A stretch of 64,000 bases of DNA, taken from Escherichia coli. Its GTDB lineage: Bacteria > Pseudomonadota > Gammaproteobacteria > Enterobacterales > Enterobacteriaceae. Below are positions 4,758 to 27,983 of this stretch, in pieces (within the stretch, counting starts at the first letter, position 1; each line of letters starts with the position of its first letter). The notes beneath the pieces are model-generated. The model did not search any database. It saw only the letters and a program-made list of their open reading frames with translations, and was not told the DNA's origin. The stretch is from NCBI RefSeq assembly GCF_003790525.1, contig NZ_CP033635.1; one strand, written 5' to 3'. The position numbers and the translations under genes were made by a program.

Positions 4758-5321
4758 TCAGTCTTCCGGGTAAATGGTGATGATGTCGCCGTCGTAACCT
4801 GCGGCAGCGGCGTAAATGGCACCGTGTATTTCCTGGATGATACTAAGCCCCACGAGGTGGCGGCTGACGGGGCGCGCATCGGCAATCAGACGCTCCATTT
4901 CTTCATGCAGCTCTTCACTTACTCCGGTTTCAAGTGTGCCAATCTCAATGGTGAAGGTCCCGGGCGAGCCGTCAAACTCCCACCATTCTGATACACGGAT
5001 GAGGTAGCCCAGTGGTTCAACGATGCGGCGGAGTGCACTGATGGTCCCTTTGTGGCGATGTATCATCCATGCGTCCCGAATCACCTGTCGCCTGGTCTCT
5101 TCCGGCCAGTTGCGGTCCCAGCTGTCAACGGAACATGCCCATGCAAGGTAGGGCAGGAGGTGAGCAGGGCAGCGGTCCGGCGACCACAGGGTGTCGGCGT
5201 CCACCGGTATGGTACTGATGCGTACTCCTGTCGCCTCTGTGGCGCGCATGAATGGCCCTGCGGACGGTGGAAGCAGTGATGTACTGTGCTGTGCGCTGTC
5301 TGTTTTTTTCCTGTCACTCAT
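4758..5321 (-). CDS. phage baseplate/tail protein I (P2 gpI-like)
   Basis: ORF 4758-5375; start placed at internal Met (MSDRKK...) next to the J stop; position between J and tail fibre as in P2. Confidence 0.7.
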   Translation of the reverse strand: MSDRKKTDSAQHSTSLLPPSAGPFMRATEATGVRISTIPVDADTLWSPDRCPAHLLPYLAWACSVDSWDRNWPEETRRQVIRDAWMIHRHKGTISALRRIVEPLGYLIRVSEWWEFDGSPGTFTIEIGTLETGVSEELHEEMERLIADARPVSRHLVGLSIIQEIHGAIYAAAAGYDGDIITIYPED

Positions 5322-6210
5322 TGCGTCCTCCTTCGCTGATGCTGAATGTGGTACATCTGGCTGCCTGAGTGTCACTGATGGTGATGTTCTGCGTGGGTTT
5401 TATGACCTCAACGCGCTGGACACCGTGAACATGCAGCGCTGCAGTGATGGCTGACAGGGCCACGTCCTGACCGATACGGCCCTGGTCTGCCAGCCATGCA
5501 CGGAAAGCGGCGTCAGCGGCCGCAAGCATGGGTTCAGACTCCGGCCCTGGATAAAAATACAGCTTCGCTTCCATTACCCAGTTCACGATGGTAGCACTCT
5601 GCACAGTCAGGCGGTCGGCAACCGGGCGCACGTTCTCGGCATTCAGGGCGGTGCGCACCGTGTTCAGTAACGCCTCACCGGCGGTGCCGTCACCGTCTGC
5701 TGACAGGATGGAGACGGTGACTGTGGCCGGTGACGGGCTGATGGCGCGCGCATCACGGACAAGACCGCTTGCGCTCCGGGCAAAATACTCATACGCGCCG
5801 GACGGTCCGGCCACACTCAGGCCGTCCCAGGCTGACTGGGCACGCAGACGCAGCGATGTGTCGCTTTCCATCACTGCTTCCGTGGTATCAGTGGCCGGAT
5901 GAATGACCAGGCGGCGGGTGTTGTTGTTGGCGGCCAGATTGTCCAGGTCACTGCCCCGGCTGTGGCTGAGCATGCAGGCGCGGGCGGCTTCATTGATGCG
6001 CTGGCGAAGCAGCATTTCACGAAAGGCCATGGCCTGGGAAATGATGTTCAATGGCTCGGATTCCAGAGTAAGGGCACGGGTGACGGCGGCGCGGTATTCT
6101 TCCGGGAAGGAGCTCACCATCATGGTTTTAATGTCTGCCAGGATGGACTCAAAATCCGGCTGCGCGATGATGGCCGGTTCCGGTAACTGTGACAGGTCAA
6201 CGGAAGGCAT
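5314..6210 (-). CDS. phage baseplate assembly protein J (P2 gpJ-like)
   Basis: 298-aa ORF (P2 J is about 300 aa); position between W and I. Confidence 0.8.
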   Translation of the reverse strand: MPSVDLSQLPEPAIIAQPDFESILADIKTMMVSSFPEEYRAAVTRALTLESEPLNIISQAMAFREMLLRQRINEAARACMLSHSRGSDLDNLAANNNTRRLVIHPATDTTEAVMESDTSLRLRAQSAWDGLSVAGPSGAYEYFARSASGLVRDARAISPSPATVTVSILSADGDGTAGEALLNTVRTALNAENVRPVADRLTVQSATIVNWVMEAKLYFYPGPESEPMLAAADAAFRAWLADQGRIGQDVALSAITAALHVHGVQRVEVIKPTQNITISDTQAARCTTFSISEGGRNE

Positions 6211-18365: not shown

Positions 18366-18793
18366 TGTTGTTTCCTCCCGTTCTGTGCTGGTCTGGCGAA
18401 TGAATTGCGTTGTGGTGAAAAGACCATTCGCGCCAGCGCGGCCTTGTGATTGACTGTGTTCAGTGTTCTGGCCAGTCCGCCGTTGTGCCTGCGTGTCCGC
18501 TCTTCGTGATATCTCTGCATGATTTTCCCGGCAGGCGTGCACGGCTCCGGTTCCTCCGGCGAACGGCGCGGACGAATGACGACAGTCCAGCTATGGCTCT
18601 CGCTGCCCGGCCGCCTGTTGAGTATGTCGGCGATGGTGGTCTCCGTGGTGCGATCGGGGCTGACTATCGTGATTTCCAGCTCGTCGCCCGGTTGTGGCCT
18701 TGTGGCAGGCCTGAACAGTGTCAGCACCGGCATACGCTGGCGCATGATGGCCTCAAACTGTGGGCGCTGCATGGTGCAGCAAAATCGCGTCAT
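18362..18793 (-). CDS. hypothetical protein (143 aa), Arg/Pro-rich
   Basis: ORF with start immediately after the gene A stop; GC-rich with alternative frames also open, so coding status is uncertain. Confidence 0.4.
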   Translation of the reverse strand: MTRFCCTMQRPQFEAIMRQRMPVLTLFRPATRPQPGDELEITIVSPDRTTETTIADILNRRPGSESHSWTVVIRPRRSPEEPEPCTPAGKIMQRYHEERTRRHNGGLARTLNTVNHKAALARMVFSPQRNSFARPAQNGRKQQ

Positions 18794-21300
18794 GCTCCCG
18801 CCTCCACTGGCTGCTCTGTGATGATGTGACGGGCTGACTCATCCCAGTACGCTGTTCCCCCGTTATCCAGACGCACACGGGCACCGTTACGCACGGAGAT
18901 GATGGCCGCGTCAGGCAACTGCACACCCAGCGCATCAAGTTCGCGGGCGATTTGCGTGTCCGTCGCGGTATCCGCAGGCACGACAATCCCCACCCTTACA
19001 GGGGTGTCAGATGCCGGTGTGGTGTCGTTTTGTCCGGTTTTTGCGCCCGACGGCTGATTTTTAATCTGATTACGCAGTTTTCTCCGATCGCCCCTGCTTA
19101 ACGTATTCAGCCAGCTTTCCAGGTTCTCTTCGGGAAGCGTCAGTCGTCCGGGGTCCTGCCTGTTTTCTGGTCCGTGATTGTCTGTTTTTTCATCCCGGGG
19201 ACAGTTATTGCCACGAGTCCAAGGGGCGACGGGGTCGCCCTGAAGGTCAAAACCCTCGCCCGTGCGGTTGTCTGGTATTGTTTCTTTTTTAACCAGTTTC
19301 CACTCGTCCGGATGGGTGCATATGGTGTACCGCTCTCCGAGCGACGGGGCGCAGATTCCGTAGATACGTTGAGGGAATTCACCGTAGTCGTTGGCTTCGT
19401 CTGCGGTTTCGTATGCGGTGCGGACCAGATACTGGTTGCGCGGAATGAGCACACCACCCTGTTTCATGATGTAGGTGGCAAAACATCCCACATCTGCGGC
19501 AGCCATAATGGCGTCAATATCGTCATGATCGAGGTGCTTCGGTGATGCCGGGTTGCGCTCCATCTGGCTTGCAAGGCGGCGGAGTTCACGCCATACCTGG
19601 CGGGGCGGAATGCCGAAAAACTGGAACTGACGGATGCGGTGAAGGCTTGCCCAGGCAATGGCGTTCTCCACGGTTTCCGCCATGGTTTTCCCGGATTCCT
19701 CATCAACGTAAGGTTTTCCGGTTTTCGGATCATTGTTGTGGAAAGCGCTGGCGTCCAGGTTCTTACCGATATAGGTTGCGATATAGCTTGCCGGTGTGCC
19801 TTTTTCCGGGTCTATCTTCTCGCATTTAAAGCGCGGTGAAATATCGTCCCCCAGTTCGTGGCGATCTGATTTAATTGCTGCTTCGCGCATAATTTCGATG
19901 ATGCGCTCTGCGTTCTCCGGGGAAGTGAATACCAGCATATGCCAGTGTGGCGTGCCGTCATGGTGTGGCTCAGCGGTTCGCACGCCGTACCAGCCCAGCC
20001 CCTCTTTTTTTATTTTTTTTCTTACGGCTGCGAAGAAGTCGTAAACCAGATAATCACTGGCATCTCGTACTGTGGCACCGTTGTATTTCGGGTTCAGGCT
20101 GCCGTTCTCGTTCACGCTGTGAAAGCGGGAAGGGGTGGTTACTGTGATGAAGAATGCGACGTCAGCCCGTAATTCGGCCACCATCTCCATCCCTCTGACG
20201 CAGACCATCATTTCATTGCGGCGGTTGCGTGGATTACCCAGGCCAGCCCAGTACACGTCCTCCAGACTCAGGCGCTCGCCGTCTTCGTTTTCAATATCCC
20301 AGCTTTTGAGAAAGTCACAGGTGCGCTGGCGCTTCTCGCGGAACTCCAGTAGTGACTCATGGCTGATATAGGGGGATTGTTTACGTGACACTCTGCCGGC
20401 GGCGCGCAGTAACTCCTCCCGCCAGAGATCGGCGACGTGGCGTAACTGGTTGTTCCACCAGGTCGCGCAGGTGATGCGCAGTACCGCACCCGGAACCCGT
20501 TCAGGGTCCGGCGGTGTGCGTCGGTTGTGCCTGATTTCGAGTTCCGGCCAGTATGGCGGGACCATGCCCAGAATTAAGGCTGTGCGTGCCACCTTCTGGT
20601 AGGCCAGCAGCCAGATAACCGGGCTGTCATTATCCTTGCCTGTCCGTTCAAGAACTTCATCACATATGCGTTCAAATTCTGCGGCGAATGCCTGGGCTGT
20701 CAGTGTGGCGATGCGCTGGATTTCGTCACGGGTGAGTTGCGGCAGTGTGAGCAGTTCTTCAAGGCGATGGCGCACGACGGTGGTTTTGAATGCCGGCGTT
20801 GCAAAGCGGTCGTTAACCCTTTCAATACGTTTCAGGCGCGCACGCAGTCCACGGCGAACGAAATTATCGGCCACGTATGCGCTGTTGTTTTTTACACCTT
20901 CACTGCGGGCACTTTGCTGTTTCCGGTTCAGTCGTGCCAGATCACGGATCAACACACTGGCAAGAAACGAGGGCAGGGTGCGAAGTTCGGCTATCGCCTC
21001 CGATACCGCCGTTGGCGGATTTTCGCGTCTGTGTCGTGCCAGCTTATCCAGCCTTATCTGCCGCTCTTCGTCCCGGTGAAGGTGTGAATTAATTTGCTTA
21101 CCTTTGTCCGTGGTTGTCAGGAAGGCCACGGTTTCTTCATCCAGCCGGGCCTCAGTGCGAATGTCTTCGGTGAGGTAGTCACGGATTGCCCGTTGTAATG
21201 CGGTTGGCTTCTGCGGTAATGCTCTGCCGAATGTCTCAGGATCAATAACCGGCAGCGGGGCGTTCCACGGGTACGCCAGGTGCGTGTGGTGATGGCTCAT
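18790..21300 (-). CDS. phage replication initiation endonuclease (P2 gpA-like, rolling-circle)
   Basis: 836-aa ORF; contains a GTPHWHMLVF HUH-type motif; position in the early operon as for P2 A. Confidence 0.8.
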   Translation of the reverse strand: MSHHHTHLAYPWNAPLPVIDPETFGRALPQKPTALQRAIRDYLTEDIRTEARLDEETVAFLTTTDKGKQINSHLHRDEERQIRLDKLARHRRENPPTAVSEAIAELRTLPSFLASVLIRDLARLNRKQQSARSEGVKNNSAYVADNFVRRGLRARLKRIERVNDRFATPAFKTTVVRHRLEELLTLPQLTRDEIQRIATLTAQAFAAEFERICDEVLERTGKDNDSPVIWLLAYQKVARTALILGMVPPYWPELEIRHNRRTPPDPERVPGAVLRITCATWWNNQLRHVADLWREELLRAAGRVSRKQSPYISHESLLEFREKRQRTCDFLKSWDIENEDGERLSLEDVYWAGLGNPRNRRNEMMVCVRGMEMVAELRADVAFFITVTTPSRFHSVNENGSLNPKYNGATVRDASDYLVYDFFAAVRKKIKKEGLGWYGVRTAEPHHDGTPHWHMLVFTSPENAERIIEIMREAAIKSDRHELGDDISPRFKCEKIDPEKGTPASYIATYIGKNLDASAFHNNDPKTGKPYVDEESGKTMAETVENAIAWASLHRIRQFQFFGIPPRQVWRELRRLASQMERNPASPKHLDHDDIDAIMAAADVGCFATYIMKQGGVLIPRNQYLVRTAYETADEANDYGEFPQRIYGICAPSLGERYTICTHPDEWKLVKKETIPDNRTGEGFDLQGDPVAPWTRGNNCPRDEKTDNHGPENRQDPGRLTLPEENLESWLNTLSRGDRRKLRNQIKNQPSGAKTGQNDTTPASDTPVRVGIVVPADTATDTQIARELDALGVQLPDAAIISVRNGARVRLDNGGTAYWDESARHIITEQPVEAGA

Positions 21301-21305
21301 TCCGC

Positions 21306-21719
21306 TTACTCCCCTGCTGTTGCCTTCTGAAATGCAGCCCGGTACAGCACAAGAAGGCGCTGGTATTCAGCGATAAAGTCTTCTGCTGTTTTAATCCCTT
21401 TCACGACCACGCTGTGGGTGGTCATTTCCAGAACGAGCACCATTTCTGACGATGACCAGCTGATAACGCTGCTGTCGCACCCGTTGATGTGGAACAGGCC
21501 CAGCTCCAGGCTGTGGTTCTGGTCTCTGACATCCACGCGGTAACGGTCGTCAACGGTGAAGGAAAAATCCCCGTATGTGGCAGCGCTGCGGGCTGCCTGT
21601 TTACAGGCGCGGCGGTAATAGTCGTGCAGGTCATTGAGACGGGAAGCGAGGCGTGGATCCACCGCCCACATCCAGTTAAAAAAATCCTGAATATCTGAAA
21701 GTCCCTTAACGCTCTTCAT
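21306..21719 (-). CDS. hypothetical protein (137 aa)
   Basis: ORF immediately upstream of gene A on the same strand. Confidence 0.5.
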   Translation of the reverse strand: MKSVKGLSDIQDFFNWMWAVDPRLASRLNDLHDYYRRACKQAARSAATYGDFSFTVDDRYRVDVRDQNHSLELGLFHINGCDSSVISWSSSEMVLVLEMTTHSVVVKGIKTAEDFIAEYQRLLVLYRAAFQKATAGE

Positions 21720-21787
21720 GAGAACCTCCGGAAACGGACGTGCGGAAGCCTCCCGCGTACGGGGGCGGGATGGCTCCGGGATGTTGA

Positions 21788-22012
21788 TTAGTGGTGGTGC
21801 TGGTTAATGAGGTCCTGCAGCTCGCGCAGGTCATCCACCAGGTAGCTGAATACAGCGGCGGAATACATGTTTGACAGTGCGTGGCTGCGCTCATGCAGCA
21901 TATTGATGTGCATGATATGCGCGACGCGGAATGCGCGGAAAAGTCTGCGGTTGATTTCAGTCTGGATGTGACGACGCGCAGCGTATGCGCGCTGTTGTTT
22001 GCGGTTTGCCAT
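21788..22012 (-). CDS. hypothetical small basic protein (74 aa) with C-terminal His run
   Basis: ORF downstream of the iteron-like non-coding region. Confidence 0.45.
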   Translation of the reverse strand: MANRKQQRAYAARRHIQTEINRRLFRAFRVAHIMHINMLHERSHALSNMYSAAVFSYLVDDLRELQDLINQHHH

Positions 22013-22332
22013 GGTGTGGCCTCTGTAGTTGCAAGTTTTGAAAACTCACCATCCAGAGGTTGCAATTCTGGGTGGCGAGACGTACAGGGTTGCAACCACC
22101 GGCAACTACAGAAACCGGCCCGACCGAAGTCGGCCCCATACGCCCCGCCATAATTCTGGCGCGAAAAAGACGTGGCGATACGGTACGCACAAAAAAACCG
22201 CTGGCGCGGTTGTGCGCTGTAGTTGTCAGCGGGGGTTGCAATCCCGGCACCCGTTTTATGAGGTGCAGCGGAAATGTAACCTGACTGATTGCGGCATGGC
22301 AAGCGGTTTTTTTGTGTGTGCATAGTGGTTAC
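22013..22332. repeat. non-coding region with iteron-like CTGTAGTTG / GGTTGCAA repeats
   Basis: GGTTGCAA-type motif at about 22027, 22059, 22089, 22235; CTGTAGTTG at about 22023 and 22218, with its reverse complement at about 22103; all read directly. Confidence 0.6.
22191..22211 (-). terminator. rho-independent terminator inside the iteron region
   Basis: Minus strand reads AACCGC-GCCA-GCGGTT followed by T7. Confidence 0.5.
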
Positions 22333-22971
22333 TCAGTCCGGTAGCAGTTCGCAAAGCACGGTGTCAGCGGCGGTATATCGTGCGTAAAGCCGGGCGAGGA
22401 CCCATCTTTTAAGGGATATCCCGGCCGTGTCCCGGATGTACTTTCTGATTTCGCTGAATGTCATCCCCTGTTCATCGCGCAGTTCAGTTACCAACTCCAC
22501 CAGGTGATCGCTGTATCTGGCTCTGTGGTGGAGTTCCCCGTATTTCCTGAACCGGTACCCTCTTTTTCTCAGGTTCAGTCCCACCGTGGATGTCGAGCGC
22601 CCCAGTTCATTCGCGAGTTCCCGGATGGTTTTTGTGTGGCGATTCCTGATGAGCGTGTTGAGTTCTTTTGTATTCAGGGGGGGTTGTTTGGTGTGGATAA
22701 CCCCCTGAGAGAGCAAAAGACGGATGCGGCTTCGTATTGCTGGCCCGGTTCTCTGAAAGTGTTTTGTCAGTTCTGGTACGGTGTGGGAGGGGTATAAACC
22801 GACCAGTAGAGCATCTTCCTGTTGTGTCCAGGCTCTGACATGCTTCGGTGGTACACCTGATACACCCATAGGTTTAAGTGCGGGCATAGTTGTTCTCCGT
22901 TGTTCTGTTTTGTGTCGGGGTAATGGTCCGGTTTTTTCGCCTTCAACCGGAAAAGAAGGGCGTGTTAGCAT
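22333..22971 (-). CDS. putative DNA-binding protein with repeated helix-turn-helix / Myb-SANT-like motifs; start uncertain
   Basis: WTQQEDALLVGLYPSHTVPELTKHFQRTGPAIRSRIRLL and two further HTH-like segments; several in-frame Met candidates. Confidence 0.5.
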   Translation of the reverse strand: MLTRPSFPVEGEKTGPLPRHKTEQRRTTMPALKPMGVSGVPPKHVRAWTQQEDALLVGLYPSHTVPELTKHFQRTGPAIRSRIRLLLSQGVIHTKQPPLNTKELNTLIRNRHTKTIRELANELGRSTSTVGLNLRKRGYRFRKYGELHHRARYSDHLVELVTELRDEQGMTFSEIRKYIRDTAGISLKRWVLARLYARYTAADTVLCELLPD

Positions 22972-23121
22972 TGATGAATCCGCCGTTCAGTGGATCTGGC
23001 GGACACTTTGTTCAACACGCCCGGGGGTAAAGATGTCTGGCTGCAAAAATTCCACGAGCCAGGTTACCCTGCACTCTGCGCTGATTAGGGGCAGAGCGAT
23101 GACGATGAGGGATAAAACACC

Positions 23122-23604
23122 ATGCAAAACAACCAACGTAAAAAATCGAGAGAACGGGATGAGGTCATGTTCCGTCTCTGGTACAGCTACTGGCTGGAGC
23201 GCATCGCGGCGGTATTCAATCGTCGCCTTGATGCGATCATCAACATTTTGATCCTTGCGGCGGGTGCGTTCATCGTAGCCGGCTGGCATTTCGGCTGGGT
23301 GCTTGGGGCAGTGGTGGTGGTTCTCGGAGCCTGTAATTTCATATGTCGTTTCGGGCAACGTGCGCAGGCGGCGAGTGAGCATGCCCATCGCTACAATGAG
23401 TTGATTACCAAAAGCGCCCTCCTCAGTACGGAAGCTCTGCTGGCACGCCTTCCAGAGCTTGAGATGCATGACTCTCCTGTCCTGGAATGCATGGAAAATG
23501 TGGCGTACAACAAAGCCTGTATGTCTCTGAATATCAGTCATCGTGAATCTCTCTCTTTCGCTGAAAAGATGATGGCTGCCATTACGATCGGTTTTTCCCG
23601 ATAA
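23122..23604 (+). CDS. predicted 2-TM inner-membrane protein (160 aa), opposite strand to the surrounding early operon
   Basis: GAGGG about 11 bp upstream of ATG; basic N-terminus, two adjacent hydrophobic helices (ILILAAGAFIVAGW and WVLGAVVVVLGACNFI), helical C-terminus; preferred over the overlapping His/Arg-rich antisense ORF. Confidence 0.55.
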   Translation: MQNNQRKKSRERDEVMFRLWYSYWLERIAAVFNRRLDAIINILILAAGAFIVAGWHFGWVLGAVVVVLGACNFICRFGQRAQAASEHAHRYNELITKSALLSTEALLARLPELEMHDSPVLECMENVAYNKACMSLNISHRESLSFAEKMMAAITIGFSR

Positions 23605-23643
23605 GTGCCCTGCGTGTGTCATCTGACGCTCGCCATGTTCCCG

Positions 23644-23892
23644 TCAGTCGTTCGGGTTTATGACGTAATCCACGACGTTTTCCACGCGGCGGCGTAATTC
23701 CCTGTGTATCTGGCCTGGTGTTGCTGGTTCGCCCGGTTGCCCCAGGCCTGCCACAAAATCGTCGATTTCACTCATAAGCAGGTTGCGCATTACGGCGATA
23801 TGGTGACGCGCCTCTTTGCCTGGTCTGCGTGCGTTGGTATCGTGTTTGCTGCTCATGTTCTTACCTCGCTTATTATCTCGAGTTCGCGCCAT
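23644..23892 (-). CDS. hypothetical small basic protein; start possibly at 23856
   Basis: ORF in early operon; an internal ATG overlaps the upstream stop. Confidence 0.4.
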   Translation of the reverse strand: MARTRDNKRGKNMSSKHDTNARRPGKEARHHIAVMRNLLMSEIDDFVAGLGQPGEPATPGQIHRELRRRVENVVDYVINPND

Positions 23893-24062
23893 GACTCTGT
23901 CAGGACGGTTATCTGTGACCCGTCCGTCAGGTGGACGTAAATCAGTTCGTCACCTGCCGGGCATCGGGTGGTGGTGGCGATGACACTGCTTTCCACTTCG
24001 TATTCCATCCCGGATGTATCGGTAAAAAGCGTTTTATTGCGTCTTCTCAGAATTGCAGTCAT
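23853..24062 (-). CDS. hypothetical protein (69 aa)
   Basis: ORF in early operon. Confidence 0.4.
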   Translation of the reverse strand: MTAILRRRNKTLFTDTSGMEYEVESSVIATTTRCPAGDELIYVHLTDGSQITVLTESWRELEIISEVRT

Positions 24063-24072
24063 GGTGTGGCCC

Positions 24073-24366
24073 TCAGTGTATTCGTGATGACGTGCCAGCC
24101 TCAGTGCTCTGAAGCTGACGTCTGAGGTTTTTCAGCTCCTGAGCCAGCCTGATGTTTTCTTCCCGGAACTCAGAAAGCGCCTGCACGGCAAGGGCGATGG
24201 CTATCGCTTCTGTCTGGTGCATCATGGCTAATAATATTTCTTCCGGATGTTCCATTAATTCACGGCTTAGTTTGTTTTTTTTCTTAATTAATTTGTTTGT
24301 GCCTTCGATTATTTTGTTGACCTGTTCACTGTTATCAATGATTCGGTTTTTTTTATTATTAAGCAT
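24073..24366 (-). CDS. hypothetical protein (97 aa), Lys-rich N-terminus, predicted coiled coil
   Basis: AT-rich ORF; heptad-like helical sequence. Confidence 0.45.
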   Translation of the reverse strand: MLNNKKNRIIDNSEQVNKIIEGTNKLIKKKNKLSRELMEHPEEILLAMMHQTEAIAIALAVQALSEFREENIRLAQELKNLRRQLQSTEAGTSSRIH

Positions 24367-24446
24367 TCCTGATTTCTCCTTTTTGAGCGGGTCAACCCCT
24401 CCGCGTGAGCGGATGTTTCTGGTTGTTTCTGGTGTTAAACGCCTGT

Positions 24447-24572
24447 TTATTTACGGCGCTTATCGCCAGTAAATAACGATTCAATGGTGTTAATGCTGTT
24501 AATTACCCGCATAATCCCCACAGCGCAAATAATGGCAAGGATAAGAATTAACCATGACATAAATACGCTCAT
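24447..24572 (-). CDS. unlisted small hydrophobic peptide (41 aa, MSVFMSWLILILAIICAVGIMRVINSINTIESLFTGDKRRK)
   Basis: My own reverse-complement translation; ATG overlaps the TGA of the upstream 80-aa gene in an ATGA arrangement; single predicted TM helix. Confidence 0.3.
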   Translation of the reverse strand: MSVFMSWLILILAIICAVGIMRVINSINTIESLFTGDKRRK

Positions 24573-24811
24573 GCTTCCTCCTGAATTACAAAGGGGGTTA
24601 TTACGTTTCCTTCAGACAGGTCTTTATTAATGGCCTGTAATTCCGTCAGAGCTTCATTATCTCCGGAACCAAAGGCGCAACAGGTCAGGCCCTTGATTGC
24701 TGTAGTCAGTGCTGCAAGTGAAACAGCGTCACCGTTAGTGCCACGGCTTGTAAGTCCGTAATGGTAATTCTGAAGCGCGTCGTTAATGAGTTCTTTATAG
24801 GCTCTTTTCAT
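24569..24811 (-). CDS. hypothetical protein (80 aa)
   Basis: ORF in early operon. Confidence 0.4.
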   Translation of the reverse strand: MKRAYKELINDALQNYHYGLTSRGTNGDAVSLAALTTAIKGLTCCAFGSGDNEALTELQAINKDLSEGNVITPFVIQEEA

Positions 24812-24849
24812 CTTGCTGCCTCTTCTGTCTTATTAAGACTCCTTTTGCC

Positions 24850-25158
24850 TTAGTAGTCGGTATGCTGAAAGCTGCGCCCCTCGATTAAGCGGTCGGCAGT
24901 TCGCAAGGCTTCGTGCAGTGTGAAATCCTGTCCGAACTGATTGTCGCCGCTGCTCAGTGCAAAAATGCGGTTTCCGGTAAACGGATTGCGGTGGCATCTG
25001 TGGATCACGAGTCCGGCCTGCTCAATCAGCCAGGTGTGTTGACCAGTCTGTTTTACAGCATGACCGCCCGGCGTTGCGTGTGTTTCGCGCAGGCTCCAGC
25101 GGTTATTGCTGCGTGGTGCACTGTTGCGGAAATGTGGCTGTGAATAATGTTTTCGCAT
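24850..25158 (-). CDS. hypothetical protein (102 aa)
   Basis: ORF preceded by a strong AGGAG Shine-Dalgarno; follows a 280-bp AT-rich gap. Confidence 0.5.
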   Translation of the reverse strand: MRKHYSQPHFRNSAPRSNNRWSLRETHATPGGHAVKQTGQHTWLIEQAGLVIHRCHRNPFTGNRIFALSSGDNQFGQDFTLHEALRTADRLIEGRSFQHTDY

Positions 25159-25440
25159 TATTTATCTCCTGCGCTTATTTTTCCTTCTATGCAATCTTTC
25201 ATGAATAACAAATACTCATTGGCTTCCTCTTCCGTTTTTAATATTCTCTCCAGATAGAAATTCTGAAAGTGTATATAGACTTATGCTCCTACCTTTGTTG
25301 TGGCTATTATGTCTTTTGCTTTAAAGTGCAATGCGTCACTACTTCTGGAGGTTAATCTTTGTCTTGGTTTCATGTTGTTGTCTTCCTTTACTTGAATACT
25401 ATTGCGGAAATATAGCTACGAATGATTACGTTGTGTGCCT

Positions 25441-25647
25441 CTACCTGATGAGCCAGATGACAAACGCTGTAAGTCCCGCGCCAACAACTATTGGAAAAAG
25501 CCCTTTAGAATAAGCTGCGACGTAATGAACGTTGAGGACAATAAAACGTTCTTTTTGTCCTGTTAGCTTGCCAAGCAGATAAATCACTACTACGCCTAAT
25601 TCCAGGAATATAATGTTCAAAACGGCATTGATGATATTGCTGGTCAT
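25441..25647 (-). CDS. small membrane protein (68 aa, two predicted TM helices)
   Basis: Highly hydrophobic AT-rich ORF directly after the first early gene; weak ribosome-binding site. Confidence 0.4.
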   Translation of the reverse strand: MTSNIINAVLNIIFLELGVVVIYLLGKLTGQKERFIVLNVHYVAAYSKGLFPIVVGAGLTAFVIWLIR

Positions 25648-25655
25648 TTTCGTGT

Positions 25656-26177
25656 TTAGCCGGGCTGGTTGTTTTTGAGTTGCTCCAGTTTTGAAACTCT
25701 GGGGGAGTAAACCTGCTTACCTTTAACGGTCTGGCAGTCCTCCTTGTTTGCCGGTGAAAACTTTCTTTTCTTGCGGTCGTACGTCCAGTAGCTTTTCCAG
25801 TTGTGCCACTCTGGCGGTTCGCACTCCAGTAGTTCGTCGGCTAGTTCGTCCCAGGCTTTGGCGTTAAACCACCATGTACCGTCTGACTTTTCATCTTCGG
25901 GATTTGAGCGCGTTTTGTGACCCGGCATCTGCCCGCGCTGAATGGCGGCGCGTAGCGCAGATTTTGTTACCCCCAGATAGGCAGCCCCTTTTTCCAGTGA
26001 CACAAGTCCTGCGACTGGGCCGTCCAGTCGTAGGGTTGCGCCCTTTTTGTAGGACGGTCTGGTTTTGGTTTCCAGGTGTTCGTTGTCGTTGGCAGCTTCA
26101 ATGAATTCATTGTCCGCGCCATCATCCTGAACCGGTTGAGCGCCAGATAACTCTTTGTCGGCAATAATCTCCCGCAT
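25656..26177 (-). CDS. first early-operon protein, Cox/Apl-like helix-turn-helix protein with acidic N-terminal and basic C-terminal extensions
   Basis: Divergent from the repressor gene; HTH-like LEKGAAYLGVTKSALRAAIQRG; at 173 aa it is larger than P2 Cox. Confidence 0.45.
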   Translation of the reverse strand: MREIIADKELSGAQPVQDDGADNEFIEAANDNEHLETKTRPSYKKGATLRLDGPVAGLVSLEKGAAYLGVTKSALRAAIQRGQMPGHKTRSNPEDEKSDGTWWFNAKAWDELADELLECEPPEWHNWKSYWTYDRKKRKFSPANKEDCQTVKGKQVYSPRVSKLEQLKNNQPG

Positions 26178-26280: not shown

Positions 26281-26622
26281 ATGAGTATCTTGTCAATAGA
26301 CTATGCGAAAAAGTTGCGTTTGATACGCAAGACGGAAGGGCTAACTCAAAAGCAATTTGCTGATATTACAGGGTTATCTCTGGCAACTGTCAGGAATTAT
26401 GAGTCAGGGCAAAAGATCGCCAGAGCAAAGATTGTTGAGGCCGTCCTTCAAGTGGATCGGTTTGAAAAATATATGTTCTGGCTAATCAAAGATAAGACGC
26501 TACCTGTTGCCGGTCAGATCGCCCCGGCTCTCTCTCTTGATGGCTCCACGCAGTCGGAGGACGATCAGGTTTCAACCCGCAATACCCAAAAATCACCCCA
26601 ATCAGGCCGCAATGCTGGCTGA
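26281..26622 (+). CDS. phage immunity repressor, P2 C-type (XRE-family HTH)
   Basis: HTH LTQKQFADITGLSLATVRNYESGQ; C-terminal GQIAPAL segment resembling P2 C as I recall it; upstream of and co-oriented with integrase. Confidence 0.75.
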   Translation: MSILSIDYAKKLRLIRKTEGLTQKQFADITGLSLATVRNYESGQKIARAKIVEAVLQVDRFEKYMFWLIKDKTLPVAGQIAPALSLDGSTQSEDDQVSTRNTQKSPQSGRNAG

Positions 26623-26682: not shown

Positions 26683-27687
26683 GTGCTGATCATGTCGATT
26701 AAGCAACTCAAAGACGGACGTTATCAGGTTGATGTAAGGCCTCAGGGGGCGGGAGGAAGGCGGATTCGTAAGATTTTCACCCTGAAATCAAAGGCGCAGG
26801 AATTCGAAAGATACGTTCTTCAGAATTTCCACAATAACCCGTGGCAGGCAAGGCCCGCCGATCAACGGCGGTTATCAGAACTGATTGAGGTGTGGTGGAT
26901 GCTTGATGGTCGTAATCAGGCATATGGTGATACCTACAGAACCAGACTGGAGAAGGTGATACGTGAAATGGGGGACCCGCGCGCCAGCCAGATGACACGA
27001 AAATTCGTGATTGAGTATCGCTCGGATAAGTTGCAGGCGGGACTGATGCCGTCCAGTATCAATCGCGACCTGTGCGCCTTATCTGCGATGTTTTCGTTGT
27101 TAATTGACGCGGAGGTTTATCATAACGAAAACCCTGTGCGCGGAATACGTAAACTCAAGGTTCAGAATACAGAAATGGCCTTTCTTTCAGATGACGAGAT
27201 TGATCGCCTTCTGAAACGGCTTGAGGGTGATGCACGACGCATTGCCATTCTGTGCCTTTCGACCGGGGCCAGATGGAAAGAGGCGTCAACGCTTCGCGGG
27301 GAACACATCGTGGGTAACAGGGTGACGTTCTTTAACACAAAGAACGGGAAATCGCGCTCGGTTCCTGTAGCTGATTCCGTTGTGCCGTTAATTAAAACCC
27401 GCCGGACCGGCCTGTTATATCAGGTTGATTATCTCAGTTTCAGGGAGATCCTTCAGGAGGTGAAGCCCGACTTACCCAAAGGGCAGGCCACGCATGTCAT
27501 GCGGCACACGTTCGCCACGCATTTCATGATGAACGGCGGGAACATCGTCACGTTGCAGAGGATCCTGGGTCACGCCACGATTCAGCAAACGATGACGTAT
27601 GCGCATTTTTCACCGGACTTTTTACAGGATGCGATCAGCTTTAATCCGCTGGCTGAAAGTGTCCATAAACTGTCCATCGACCAGTAA
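26683..27687 (+). CDS. int: tyrosine integrase (P2 Int-like)
   Basis: 334-aa ORF; C-terminal HxxRHT and Y motifs (ATHVMRHTFATH ... MTYAHF); terminal position in the prophage. Confidence 0.85.
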   Translation: MLIMSIKQLKDGRYQVDVRPQGAGGRRIRKIFTLKSKAQEFERYVLQNFHNNPWQARPADQRRLSELIEVWWMLDGRNQAYGDTYRTRLEKVIREMGDPRASQMTRKFVIEYRSDKLQAGLMPSSINRDLCALSAMFSLLIDAEVYHNENPVRGIRKLKVQNTEMAFLSDDEIDRLLKRLEGDARRIAILCLSTGARWKEASTLRGEHIVGNRVTFFNTKNGKSRSVPVADSVVPLIKTRRTGLLYQVDYLSFREILQEVKPDLPKGQATHVMRHTFATHFMMNGGNIVTLQRILGHATIQQTMTYAHFSPDFLQDAISFNPLAESVHKLSIDQ

Positions 27688-27799
27688 TTATTTGTGATAA
27701 TTTGCTCCCCTTGTTTTTGTTTACTTATTGAAAAATAAGGAAATCAGCAAGAGGAGTAAGTACCGTTAAATCTCCTGCGGGCGCTTTTTTTGTCTCCCT
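27688..27799. other. putative prophage-chromosome junction (att region); core not identified
   Basis: Non-coding stretch between the int stop and the dmsA FNR site; the other prophage end is outside the window. Confidence 0.3.
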
Positions 27800-27813
27800 T
27801 TGATACCGAACAA
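27800..27813 (+). promoter_or_regulatory. FNR binding site of the dmsA promoter
   Basis: TTGAT-ACCG-AACAA read directly, matching the FNR consensus TTGAT-N4-ATCAA; dmsABC is FNR-activated. Confidence 0.5.
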
Positions 27814-27983
27814 TAATTACTCCTCACTTACACGTAATACTACTTTCGAGTGAAAATCTACCTATCTCTTTGATTTTCAAATTATTCGATATATACAAGC
27901 CTATATAGCGACCTGCTATAGAAATAATTACACAATACGGTTTGTTACTGGAATCAATCGTGAGCAAGCTTGAGTGAGCCATT

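What the first reader, a model, noticed from the sequence alone, without database searches (positions are those of the whole stretch)
22980..23640. Opposite-strand 2-TM membrane protein gene embedded in the early operon
Gene 23122-23604 is the only plus-strand gene inside the minus-strand early region. It has its own upstream ribosome-binding site and encodes a 160-aa protein with a basic N-terminus, two back-to-back transmembrane helices and a helical C-terminal domain. Phage-encoded small membrane proteins transcribed against the early operon are commonly superinfection-exclusion or abortive-infection effectors. The architecture also resembles 2-TM effector modules seen in defence systems, but I cannot confirm family membership from sequence alone.
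Basis: inference. Interest (0 to 1): 0.6.

Follow-up and report, generated by a model that had tools for sequence, protein, structure and literature searches.

The report
Backwards membrane-protein gene inside prophage operon
A real but uncharacterised small membrane-protein gene sits backwards inside the early operon of a P2-type prophage, as part of a conserved cassette found in many temperate phages, and the operon strand opposite it is kept free of stop codons, a pattern not found in the papers searched.

Summary
Window 23122-23604 (+) is a genuine 160-aa gene, the only plus-strand gene in the minus-strand early operon of a P2-like E. coli prophage beside dmsABC. Substitutions pile up at its third codon positions. 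About 107 sequence clusters of 150-170 aa share it, and AlphaFold gives pLDDT 96.

It has an N-in/C-in two-helix membrane hairpin flanked by cytosolic helices. It looks SLATT-like, but only at sub-threshold profile scores and by fold. It is not in Pfam or PADLOC and has no SMODS/SLOG/TIR/RT partner.

In every P2-like locus examined (about 30, from some 15 diverged alleles), and in several lambdoid prophages, it lies against the early operon, as sieB does in lambda. It travels as a cassette:
- an extended -10 box;
- a 5' hairpin;
- a conserved proline-rich upstream ORF, broken in this window's allele;
- the gene itself.

The antisense ORF 22987-23622 is not conserved as a protein. Yet codons that would place stops in it are about 8-fold depleted (10 seen, 75 expected), so that frame appears to be kept open. 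My reading is that translation across it protects early transcription from Rho. A covarying pseudoknot follows on that strand.

A role in superinfection exclusion or abortive infection is plausible but untested.

The parts
23122..23604 (+). Gene for a 160-aa SLATT-like 2-TM inner-membrane protein ('TM2'). Predicted N-in/C-in hairpin (TM helices about residues 37-56 and 57-76) with cytosolic N- and C-terminal helices.
   Evidence: ORF. PGAP CDS WP_029399959.1. phrog_6315 at E=5e-65. 107 cluster representatives. Third-position substitution bias. AF2 pLDDT 96. Hydropathy and charge.
23107..23112 (+). Shine-Dalgarno GAGGGA for TM2. In relatives it lies inside the acidic C-terminal codons of the upstream ORF.
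   Evidence: Sequence; comparison with relatives.
23033..23115 (+). Degenerate remnant of the conserved proline-rich upstream ORF. The ATG at 23033 is retained. A 1-nt deletion lies in the A-run near 23045-23049, an in-frame TAG at 23086-23088, and the ancestral TAA at 23113-23115. Translation from 23033 now runs out of frame to 23251.
   Evidence: Three-frame comparison with intact uORFs in L007, L014, L003, L002, L005, L035, L037 and L043. Synonymous changes far exceed non-synonymous in the intact cores. The same break is seen in all six other copies of the window allele whose upstream DNA was read (L001, L009-L013).
22963..22971 (+). Extended -10-like box TGTTAGCAT (TGnTAnnnT), the putative promoter of the cassette.
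   Evidence: A TGnTAnnnT box is present in 14 of 16 loci; it lies 69-78 nt upstream of the uORF ATG in 12 of them. Invariant alignment columns TG.TA...T. Not mapped experimentally.
22979..23003 (+). Predicted 5'-leader stem-loop (TCCGCCGTTCAGTGGATCTGGCGGA) with a GTTC(T) motif.
   Evidence: A comparable two-tier hairpin is predicted in all 12 loci folded, dG -10.8 to -20.2 kcal/mol, with differing outer stems. RNAalifold on automatic alignments returned no structure.
22927..22959 (-). H-type pseudoknot-compatible element on the early-operon strand: CCTTC-TTT-TCCGGTT-GAAGG-CGAAAA-AACCGGA.
   Evidence: 10-12 Watson-Crick pairs in all 13 P2-like loci; 0-2 of 200 shuffles reach this. At least 7 different S1 sequences keep complementarity. 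No Rfam match. Function unknown.
22987..23622 (-). Antisense 'bridge' ORF (211 aa) in codon register with TM2. Its amino-acid sequence is unconstrained but the frame is kept open. It is packed between early genes: 21 nt after the stop of 23644-23856, and 15 nt before the ATG at 22971.
   Evidence: ORF. No TTA, CTA or TCA codons in TM2; P about 0.001-0.02. Family-wide depletion 10 observed vs 75 expected, with control codons normal or only mildly reduced. Antisense identity equals the null. SD/ATG and operon-like packing in relatives.
23644..23856 (-). Upstream early-operon gene (70 aa, phrog_4144), convergent with TM2. Only 39 nt separate the two stop codons and no terminator was found between them.
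22333..22887 (-). Next early-operon gene, a 184-aa predicted DNA-binding protein (phrog_323). It is divergent from TM2. It is present with the window and CM2 alleles but absent from other TM2 loci, so it is not an obligate partner.

Best explanation
SHOWN. Window 23122-23604 is a real protein-coding gene. It belongs to a wide, uncharacterised family of about 155-aa proteins with a two-helix membrane hairpin and cytosolic helical flanks, a SLATT-like fold. In this window it sits in a P2-like prophage, pointing against the early (cox to gpA) operon. It is part of a self-contained accessory cassette found at varying positions in P2-like prophages and in some lambdoid prophages. Reading on the + strand, the cassette is: extended -10 box, 5' stem-loop, short proline-rich upstream ORF ending 5-7 nt before the start codon, then the membrane-protein gene. 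In this window's allele the upstream ORF is broken.

INFERRED. The cassette is transcribed from its own promoter while the early operon is repressed, that is, in the lysogen. The protein inserts N-in/C-in in the inner membrane. It acts as a prophage-encoded exclusion or abortive-infection effector that perturbs the membrane when a superinfecting phage triggers it, analogous to lambda/P22 SieB and to SLATT 2-TM effectors. On induction, convergent transcription from the early promoter silences it.

INFERRED from a shown statistical signal. The early operon has to read through the cassette on the other strand, so an ORF on that strand is kept open and translated. This keeps ribosomes on the transcript and stops Rho from terminating before the replication genes. 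The pseudoknot just downstream of this bridge ORF belongs to the same read-through arrangement.
For: Gene reality:
- PGAP calls the gene.
- phrog_6315 at E=5e-65.
- 107 representatives of 50%-identity clusters, mostly 150-170 aa.
- Third-position substitution bias, and + identity well above antisense identity.
- One homologue has a stop in the antisense frame.

Fold and topology:
- pLDDT 96.
- Basic N-terminus and two hydrophobic helices.
- Foldseek hits at TM 0.8-0.94, many named SLATT or DUF4231.
- Sub-threshold SLATT_1/SLATT_4 hits over the TM region in 8 of 11 proteins.
- Marginal CBASS-2TM and RT-SLATT hits.

Cassette and orientation:
- Always opposite to gpA and the early genes in L001-L034.
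- Lies between cox and C in L014.
- Opposite-strand again in lambdoid prophages L035-L039 and in L042.
- Only 31 of 5426 E. coli genomes carry it, against 1417 with similar early regions, so it is an accessory gene.
- Conserved extended -10 box, 5' hairpin, and uORF with synonymous changes far exceeding non-synonymous.
- Precedent: lambda sieB is the only rightward gene in the pL operon.

Bridge ORF:
- TTA/CTA/TCA 10 observed vs 75 expected. Controls: GTA/ATA 32 vs 51; NCA 76 vs 80.
- Per-locus probability of an open frame 1e-4 to 0.05.
- Strong SD plus ATG, or ATGA overlaps, in L017, L024, L035 and L038.
- No depletion in the co-oriented L043 or in lambda sieB.
- The minus-strand RNA over the gene is C-rich, since the + strand GC skew is +0.08 to +0.12.
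- A C4-type RNA module sits downstream in the same operon.
Against: - No expression, phenotype or localisation data exist for any family member. The exclusion or abortive-infection role is by analogy only.
- No SLATT profile reaches its curated cutoff, and no Pfam family matches any of 89 members.
- No signalling-enzyme partner is present in any locus, so any trigger is unknown.
- There is no homology to SieB.
- The promoter is a consensus match only. The strict sigma-70 scan found none upstream.
- This window's allele has lost the upstream ORF, so its regulation, and possibly its activity, may differ from the family norm.
- The bridge ORF in this window has only a weak SD.
- L037 is embedded in an operon yet has 10 antisense stops.
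- The loci share ancestry, so the depletion counts are not independent.
- Rho involvement is untested.
Confidence: 0.5

Rival explanations
1. The antisense ORF 22987-23622 is the real early-operon gene with a functional product, and the + ORF is its shadow.
For: - It is co-oriented and tightly packed with the early genes.
- The equivalent ORF is the one annotated (gp08) in Yersinia phage vB_YenM_42.18.
- The frame is open in many diverged relatives.
Against: - Substitutions fall on + position 3, which is antisense position 1.
- Antisense amino-acid identity equals the null expected from the + protein alone.
- It has no PHROG, NCBIfam or PADLOC hit.
- L005, L007, L014, L016 and L019 interrupt it.
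- The + protein has a deep family and a pLDDT-96 fold.
Confidence: 0.03
2. TM2 is a prophage-expressed inner-membrane protein that blocks DNA entry of superinfecting phages, in the manner of P22 SieA, T4 Imm or HK97 gp15. It does not kill or depolarise the cell.
For: The same positional and accessory-gene evidence as the main explanation. It is a stand-alone small membrane protein with no partner.
Against: - The periplasmic loop is only 3-4 residues, so nearly all conserved residues face the cytoplasm.
- Its nearest detectable relatives are SLATT-type 2-TM proteins. These are regarded as cell-killing effectors; that point is from my own knowledge.
Confidence: 0.2
3. The cassette is a toxin or addiction-type module. 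TM2 is a membrane toxin, and either the overlapping early-operon transcript or the upstream peptide acts as its antidote.
For: - The arrangement is fully antisense with no terminator between the convergent genes.
- A conserved small upstream ORF is present.
Against: - The early operon is repressed in lysogens, so the supposed antisense antidote would be absent exactly when the cell must survive.
- At 160 aa, TM2 is far larger than type I toxins.
- AlphaFold of a peptide-linker-TM2 fusion shows no docking; peptide pLDDT is 35-57.
- The window allele has lost the peptide yet is found in 26 complete genomes.
Confidence: 0.08
4. The open antisense frame is a by-product of codon usage or shared ancestry. 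It is not selected and not translated.
For: - Register antisense frames are known to be long in many genes (own knowledge).
- The loci are related.
- GTA/ATA are also mildly depleted, at 0.63 of expectation.
- The window's bridge ORF has a poor SD.
Against: - The depletion is specific and about 8-fold. Control NCA codons are at 0.95 of expectation, and rare CTT, CTC and AGT codons are over-used.
- It persists across alleles only 35-60% identical in protein, where synonymous sites are saturated.
- It is absent in L043, L037 and lambda sieB.
- L042 keeps a different antisense frame open for 201 aa.
- Neighbouring real genes of the window carry 1-15 such codons each.
Confidence: 0.15

Closest known systems
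SLATT (SMODS and SLOG-associating 2-TM effector) superfamily, including DUF4231
   Same: - Two adjacent TM helices with helical cytosolic flanks, and a similar size.
- Sub-threshold SLATT_4/SLATT_1 matches aligned over the TM core.
- Foldseek neighbours that carry these names.
- Marginal hits to CBASS 2TM and RT-associated SLATT models.
   Different: - No profile reaches its curated cutoff, and there are no Pfam SLATT hits in 89 members.
- It is stand-alone. No cyclase, SLOG, TIR or reverse-transcriptase neighbour occurs in about 40 loci.
- It carries its own conserved upstream ORF.
- It is located in phage early operons rather than defence islands.
Lambda/P22 SieB (superinfection exclusion B, an abortive-infection protein)
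   Same: A small membrane protein gene that is the only opposite-strand gene inside a repressed early operon of a temperate phage. It is an accessory gene.
   Different: - No detectable sequence or profile similarity.
- Lambda sieB has 9 antisense stops, so no bridge ORF.
- No evidence here for an Esc-type internal start.
Phage 'morons' (independently transcribed accessory genes in prophages, such as HK97 gp15, lambda bor/lom, P2 old/tin/fun)
   Same: Sporadic distribution, own promoter-like element, and variable insertion point within a conserved backbone.
   Different: - It is inserted inside an essential operon in antisense, rather than between operons.
- It is not at the P2 hotspots described by Rousset et al. 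2022 (PMC9122126).
- It comes with constraints on the opposite strand.
P1/P7 immI (c4 antisense RNA - icd - ant), where translation controls downstream transcription
   Same: The same operon contains Rfam C4 and isrK matches upstream of a 'derepression' gene. The idea that translation keeps early transcription going is the principle proposed for the bridge ORF. C4 regulation of ant via icd is cited in PMC8201110. The Rho step is from my own knowledge (Biere et al. 1992).
   Different: That module is a neighbour of the TM2 cassette, not part of it. No C4 target was examined here.

Membership tests
SLATT superfamily | Two adjacent transmembrane helices flanked by cytosolic alpha-helices | tested here: met
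   AF2 model with helices 2-52, 58-75, 77-99 and onward at pLDDT 96. Hydropathy and charge.
SLATT superfamily | Significant match to a SLATT profile (Pfam SLATT_1-6/fungal; NCBIfam NF03363x) at the curated threshold | tested here: not met
   Query: SLATT_1 16.5 bits against a cutoff of 41. Relatives: at most 26.5 bits against a cutoff of 55. Pfam: none at E<=0.001 in 89 members.
SLATT superfamily | Fold similarity to proteins annotated as SLATT | tested here: inconclusive
   Many Foldseek hits at TM 0.8-0.94 are named SLATT or DUF4231. These are automatic names and some hits may belong to this same family. No solved SLATT structure was found.
SLATT superfamily | Operonic or fused association with a nucleotide-signalling or other sensor enzyme (SMODS, SLOG, TIR, RT) | tested here: not met
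   No such neighbour in any locus examined.
SieB (Pfam PF14163) | Sequence or profile homology to lambda/P22 SieB | tested here: not met
   No Pfam hit. hhalign probability 0.2%.
SieB (Pfam PF14163) | Opposite-strand gene within the repressed early operon of a temperate phage | tested here: met
   This is positional analogy only.
SieB (Pfam PF14163) | Aborts lytic growth of superinfecting phages when expressed from the prophage | not testable with these tools
   Needs plaque and one-step growth assays.
Phage moron | Accessory gene with its own promoter, present in some but not all related prophages | tested here: inconclusive
   Sporadic: 31 of 5426 genomes against 1417 with related early regions. 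A conserved extended -10-like box is present but no transcript data. No terminator lies downstream.
Type I toxin-antitoxin | Very small (<60 aa) hydrophobic toxin with a dedicated cis- or trans-encoded antisense sRNA | tested here: not met
   The protein is 160 aa with large soluble domains. The antisense RNA is the early operon mRNA, not a dedicated sRNA.
Holin | Membrane protein in the lysis cassette with a holin family match | tested here: not met
   It lies in the early region, opposite strand. No holin family appears in Pfam, PHROGs or NCBIfam.

The most novel reading that the evidence does not exclude
An accessory gene inserted backwards into an essential phage operon imposes a second, protein-independent constraint on its own codons. 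The three codons that would read as stops on the operon strand are purged. This lets the operon's ribosomes translate a sequence-free 'bridge' ORF across the insert and so shield early transcription from Rho-dependent polarity. A conserved pseudoknot then hands over to the next early gene. That would be a selected antisense overlapping ORF whose function is the act of translation, not its product.
Probability: 0.4. Interest if true: 0.8.

Novelty: new variant of a known kind. Interest (0 to 1): 0.62.

Why it matters
- It defines a widespread but unnamed prophage cassette: a SLATT-like membrane protein with a proline-rich leader ORF. This is a strong, cheap-to-test candidate for a single-gene exclusion or abortive-infection system outside the known P2 hotspots.
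- It corrects at least one public phage annotation, where the opposite strand was called as the gene.
- It offers a clean natural test case for two open questions. One is whether long antisense ORFs in bacteria and phages are ever selected, and for what. The other is how an operon tolerates a convergent gene in its middle.
- The proposed experiment, silent codon changes with and without a Rho inhibitor, is simple and decisive.

Tried and rejected
- Pfam on the query and on all 89 aligned relatives gave only chance membrane hits.
- PADLOC gave LeoBC at E=0.018 and marginal 2TM/RTasSLATT hits only. The family is not a catalogued defence protein.
- hhalign of the family against lambda SieB showed no relationship.
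- A word-indexed homologue search with the family alignment added nothing and showed no Pfam labels. Cluster names were almost all 'hypothetical protein'.
- The search for related loci with the 89-sequence alignment failed because it was too divergent. It worked with 8 close sequences.
- RNAalifold on automatic alignments of the leader returned no structure. The hairpin and pseudoknot were then shown by per-sequence folding and an explicit stem search with shuffles.
- AlphaFold of an upstream-peptide/linker/TM2 fusion did not dock the peptide. There is no support for a stable peptide-protein complex, though the test is weak.
- The strict sigma-70 scan found no promoter upstream and no terminator downstream.
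- The divergent DNA-binding gene 22333-22887 was considered as an obligate partner and rejected. It is absent from most TM2 loci.
- Literature searches on SLATT with prophage, DUF4231, antisense ORF with Rho, and P2-like exclusion found no description of this family or arrangement.

Full report
CONTEXT. The window is E. coli chromosome carrying a P2-like (Peduoviridae-type) prophage next to dmsABC. The stretch 21300-25700 is 100% identical to NZ_CP128970. The RefSeq annotation of that record maps onto the window as follows:
- integrase, 26683-27687 (+);
- C-type repressor, 26281-26622 (+);
- a minus-strand early operon running from cox (25656-26177) to the replication endonuclease gpA (18790-21300).

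OBSERVATION. ORF 23122-23604 (+), 160 aa, is present. It is the only + strand CDS that PGAP calls inside the early operon (WP_029399959.1, hypothetical protein). It has a GAGGGA Shine-Dalgarno 9 nt upstream. The N-terminus is basic, with 9 K/R in the first 36 residues. Two adjacent hydrophobic helices (about residues 37-56 and 57-76) are joined by a 3-4 residue loop, and the remainder is helical. The antisense ORF 22987-23622 (211 aa) also exists, in exact codon register with it.

WHICH STRAND CODES. I collected diverged alleles from E. coli (L007, L003/L008), Enterobacter (L005) and a Yersinia phage (L002).
- Differences pile up at + codon position 3. Window vs L007 gives 48/30/88 at positions 1/2/3. 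Near-identical alleles differ only at position 3.
- The + protein is 58% identical between window and L007; the antisense product is 33% identical.
- For saturated pairs, antisense identity equals what is expected if only the + protein were constrained and synonymous codons were random. Window vs L003 gives 0.28 against 0.28 +/- 0.03.
- The + protein matches phrog_6315 at E=5e-65, while the antisense product matches nothing.
- An exhaustive search finds 107 representatives of 50%-identity clusters, mostly full-length and 150-170 aa.

The + gene is therefore real. In Yersinia phage vB_YenM_42.18 the annotators called the antisense ORF (gp08) and left the homologue of this gene unannotated.

WHAT THE PROTEIN IS.
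- AlphaFold with the 89-sequence alignment gives pLDDT 96 and pTM 0.88. The model has a long N-terminal helix running into TM1, then TM2, then four further helices.
- The charge distribution and the very short loop predict an N-in/C-in topology, with almost all conserved positions cytosolic. These include YSYWLE, NRRxD, QAxxYxxL and ExxDS.
- No Pfam family matches the query or any of 89 relatives.
- No solved structure is related by sequence or specifically by fold.
- NCBIfam gives SLATT_1 or SLATT_4 hits over the TM core in the query and in 7 of 10 relatives. All are far below the curated cutoffs; the best is 26.5 bits against 55.
- Foldseek against AFDB50 gives more than 100 hits. The top ones reach TM 0.8-0.94, and many are named 'SMODS and SLOG-associating 2TM effector domain-containing', 'SLATT', 'DUF4231' or 'Fels-2 prophage protein'.
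- PADLOC shows only marginal similarity to CBASS 2TM effectors and RT-associated SLATT.

I conclude it is SLATT-like in architecture and probably a remote branch of that superfamily. It is not a member by any curated test, and it lacks the partner enzymes that define SLATT systems.

GENOMIC BEHAVIOUR.
- Only 31 of 5426 complete E. coli genomes carry the gene, in three allele groups. Related early regions occur in 1417 genomes. It is an accessory gene.
- In every P2-like locus retrieved (L001-L034, L042), the gene lies on the C/int strand, opposite gpA and the early genes. Protein identity to the window in these loci runs from 35% to 100%. Its position varies.
- In L014-L018 and L023 it sits directly between cox and C.
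- More distant relatives (about 25% identity) are found in lambdoid-type prophages. There too it is a lone opposite-strand gene inside the leftward early operon (L035-L039).
- One distant relative is co-oriented with its neighbours (L043).
- Lambda sieB has the same placement in the pL operon, but is not detectably homologous.

THE CASSETTE. Alignment of the upstream regions revealed three conserved elements.

1. A short upstream ORF of 27-50 codons with its own SD. It ends 5-7 nt before the TM2 start, and the TM2 SD lies inside its acidic last codons. Its core is D-x-F-H-V-x-x-K-P-A-P-x-P-E. Examples are MSDSDKFHVPRQPAPAPEKGQGRDDEEG in L007 and ...DFHILHKPAPPEEKKTDDEE in the Yersinia phage. 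Recognisable versions occur in the lambdoid loci, in a stromatolite metagenome contig and in L043. Synonymous codon changes far outnumber non-synonymous ones in the core, for example 7 to 1. The ORF is therefore translated and its peptide sequence matters.

   In the window allele this ORF is broken by a 1-nt deletion and an in-frame TAG. The same break is present in all six other copies of that allele whose upstream DNA was read (L001, L009-L013). Translation from the retained ATG at 23033 now runs out of frame across the TM2 start to 23251.

   A fusion model gave no evidence that the peptide binds TM2. I therefore favour a cis-acting leader or coupling role, but that is open.

2. An extended -10-like box TGnTAnnnT, present in 14 of 16 loci and lying 69-78 nt upstream of the uORF in 12 of them. 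The alignment columns are invariant. In the window it is at 22963-22971.

3. A 5'-leader stem-loop predicted in all 12 loci folded, with differing outer stems. In the window it is at 22979-23003.

THE OTHER STRAND. The TM2 gene of the window contains no TTA, CTA or TCA codons. These are the three codons that read as stops in the register antisense frame. Given its 17 Leu and 11 Ser, the probability is about 0.001 with the prophage's own codon usage, or 0.02 with whole-window usage.

- Over 14 enterobacterial P2-like alleles, these codons occur 10 times against 75 expected.
- Control codons behave differently. GTA/ATA occur 32 times against 51 expected, and ACA/GCA/CCA occur 76 times against 80. 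Rare CTT, CTC and AGT codons are over-used.
- Where one or two 'stops' remain, they are ORF boundaries near the TM2 3' end. In L028 the stop is simply the natural stop of the upstream early gene, followed 18 nt later by a 370-aa ORF.
- The antisense ORF often has a strong SD (GGGGGAGGG in L017, GGGGAGGAAG in L024) or an ATGA overlap with the preceding gene (L035, L038). It is packed like an operon gene.
- L042 keeps a different antisense frame open for 201 aa.
- There is no depletion in the co-oriented L043, in L037, or in lambda sieB, which has 9 stops.
- In the window, the minus strand from 23856 to 18790 is a nearly gap-free chain of ORFs: 23644-23856, then 22987-23622, then 22333-22971, then 21706-22323, then 21306-21719, then gpA.

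The antisense product is unconstrained in sequence. What seems to be selected is therefore translatability.

My inference is that P2-type early operons lack N-type antitermination (own knowledge). An untranslated, C-rich stretch of about 600 nt would invite Rho-dependent termination before the replication genes. The + strand GC skew here is +0.08 to +0.12, which makes the minus-strand RNA C-rich. The same operon contains Rfam C4 and isrK matches upstream of a 'derepression' gene. In P1, that module works by coupling translation to downstream transcription. C4/icd/ant regulation is described in PMC8201110. The Rho step is from my own knowledge.

PSEUDOKNOT. Immediately beyond the -10 box, on the minus strand, all 13 P2-like loci carry two interleaved stems in H-type pseudoknot order.
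- Each has 10-12 Watson-Crick pairs, and 0-2 of 200 shuffles reach this number.
- At least seven different S1 sequences, and several S2 variants, keep complementarity.
- L1 is 0-3 nt and L3 is an A-rich 3-8 nt. This geometry is feasible only on the minus strand.
- In the window it is 22927-22959, 25 nt after the bridge ORF stop and 36 nt before the next early gene. It has no Rfam match.
- Its role is unexplained.

FUNCTION. No experiment bears on it. Several features fit a prophage-expressed exclusion or abortive-infection effector that perturbs the inner membrane and is silenced by convergent early transcription on induction:
- accessory distribution;
- an independent promoter-like element;
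- consistent orientation against the operon that is off in lysogens;
- the sieB precedent;
- the SLATT-like fold, with almost everything facing the cytoplasm.

I put this at about 0.5. A non-lethal DNA-entry block is the main alternative. The trigger is unknown. The broken leader ORF means the window's copy may be regulated differently or be decaying.

VERDICT. The family and its cassette are undescribed in the libraries and papers I could search. I class it as a new variant of a known kind, a prophage accessory membrane effector. The architecture on both strands is unusual and worth testing experimentally.

Noticed in passing
window 22068-22155 (-) and 22191-22266 (-): Rfam C4 antisense RNA (80 bits) and isrK (60 bits) lie in the early operon, just upstream of a 74-aa 'derepression protein' gene (21788-22012). 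This looks like a P1 immI-type or P4-type RNA-controlled antirepressor module inside a P2-like prophage.
   Followed up: partly
window 21706-22323 (-): A 205-aa ORF covers the isrK/C4 RNAs and overlaps the derepression gene in another frame. It starts 10 nt after the previous gene's stop and overlaps the next gene's start. Equivalent long ORFs exist in L007 (201 aa), L003 (455 aa) and L028 (370 aa). It may be another translated 'bridge' or an icd-like ORF.
   Followed up: partly
L002 (NC_070913, Yersinia phage vB_YenM_42.18) 4788-5453 (-) versus 4977-5444 (+): The deposited annotation calls the antisense ORF (gp08, 221 aa). It leaves the conserved 155-aa membrane-protein gene and its upstream ORF unannotated. 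This is probably a strand mis-call.
   Followed up: yes
window 23033-23115 (+): The conserved proline-rich upstream ORF of the cassette is inactivated in this allele by a 1-nt deletion plus a TAG. The retained ATG now opens a 72-codon out-of-frame ORF across the TM2 start.
   Followed up: yes
window 22927-22959 (-): A covarying element compatible with an H-type pseudoknot, on the early-operon strand, with no Rfam family. It travels with the cassette in all 13 P2-like loci tested.
   Followed up: partly
window 27759-27893 (-): Rfam STnc130 sRNA match (127 bits) just beyond the integrase gene, at the prophage/chromosome junction towards dmsA.
   Followed up: no
window 22888-22971 (-): The DNA-binding protein gene has an alternative upstream ATG at 22971 (212 aa, against PGAP's 184 aa from 22887). 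Using it would make ribosomes translate through the pseudoknot and the cassette promoter region.
   Followed up: no
L035, L036, L038, L039 (lambdoid-type prophages), directly downstream of the TM2 homologue: A conserved 41-aa minus-strand gene always abuts the 3' end of the TM2 homologue. Its stop overlaps (ATGA) the start of the 252-aa antisense ORF.
   Followed up: no
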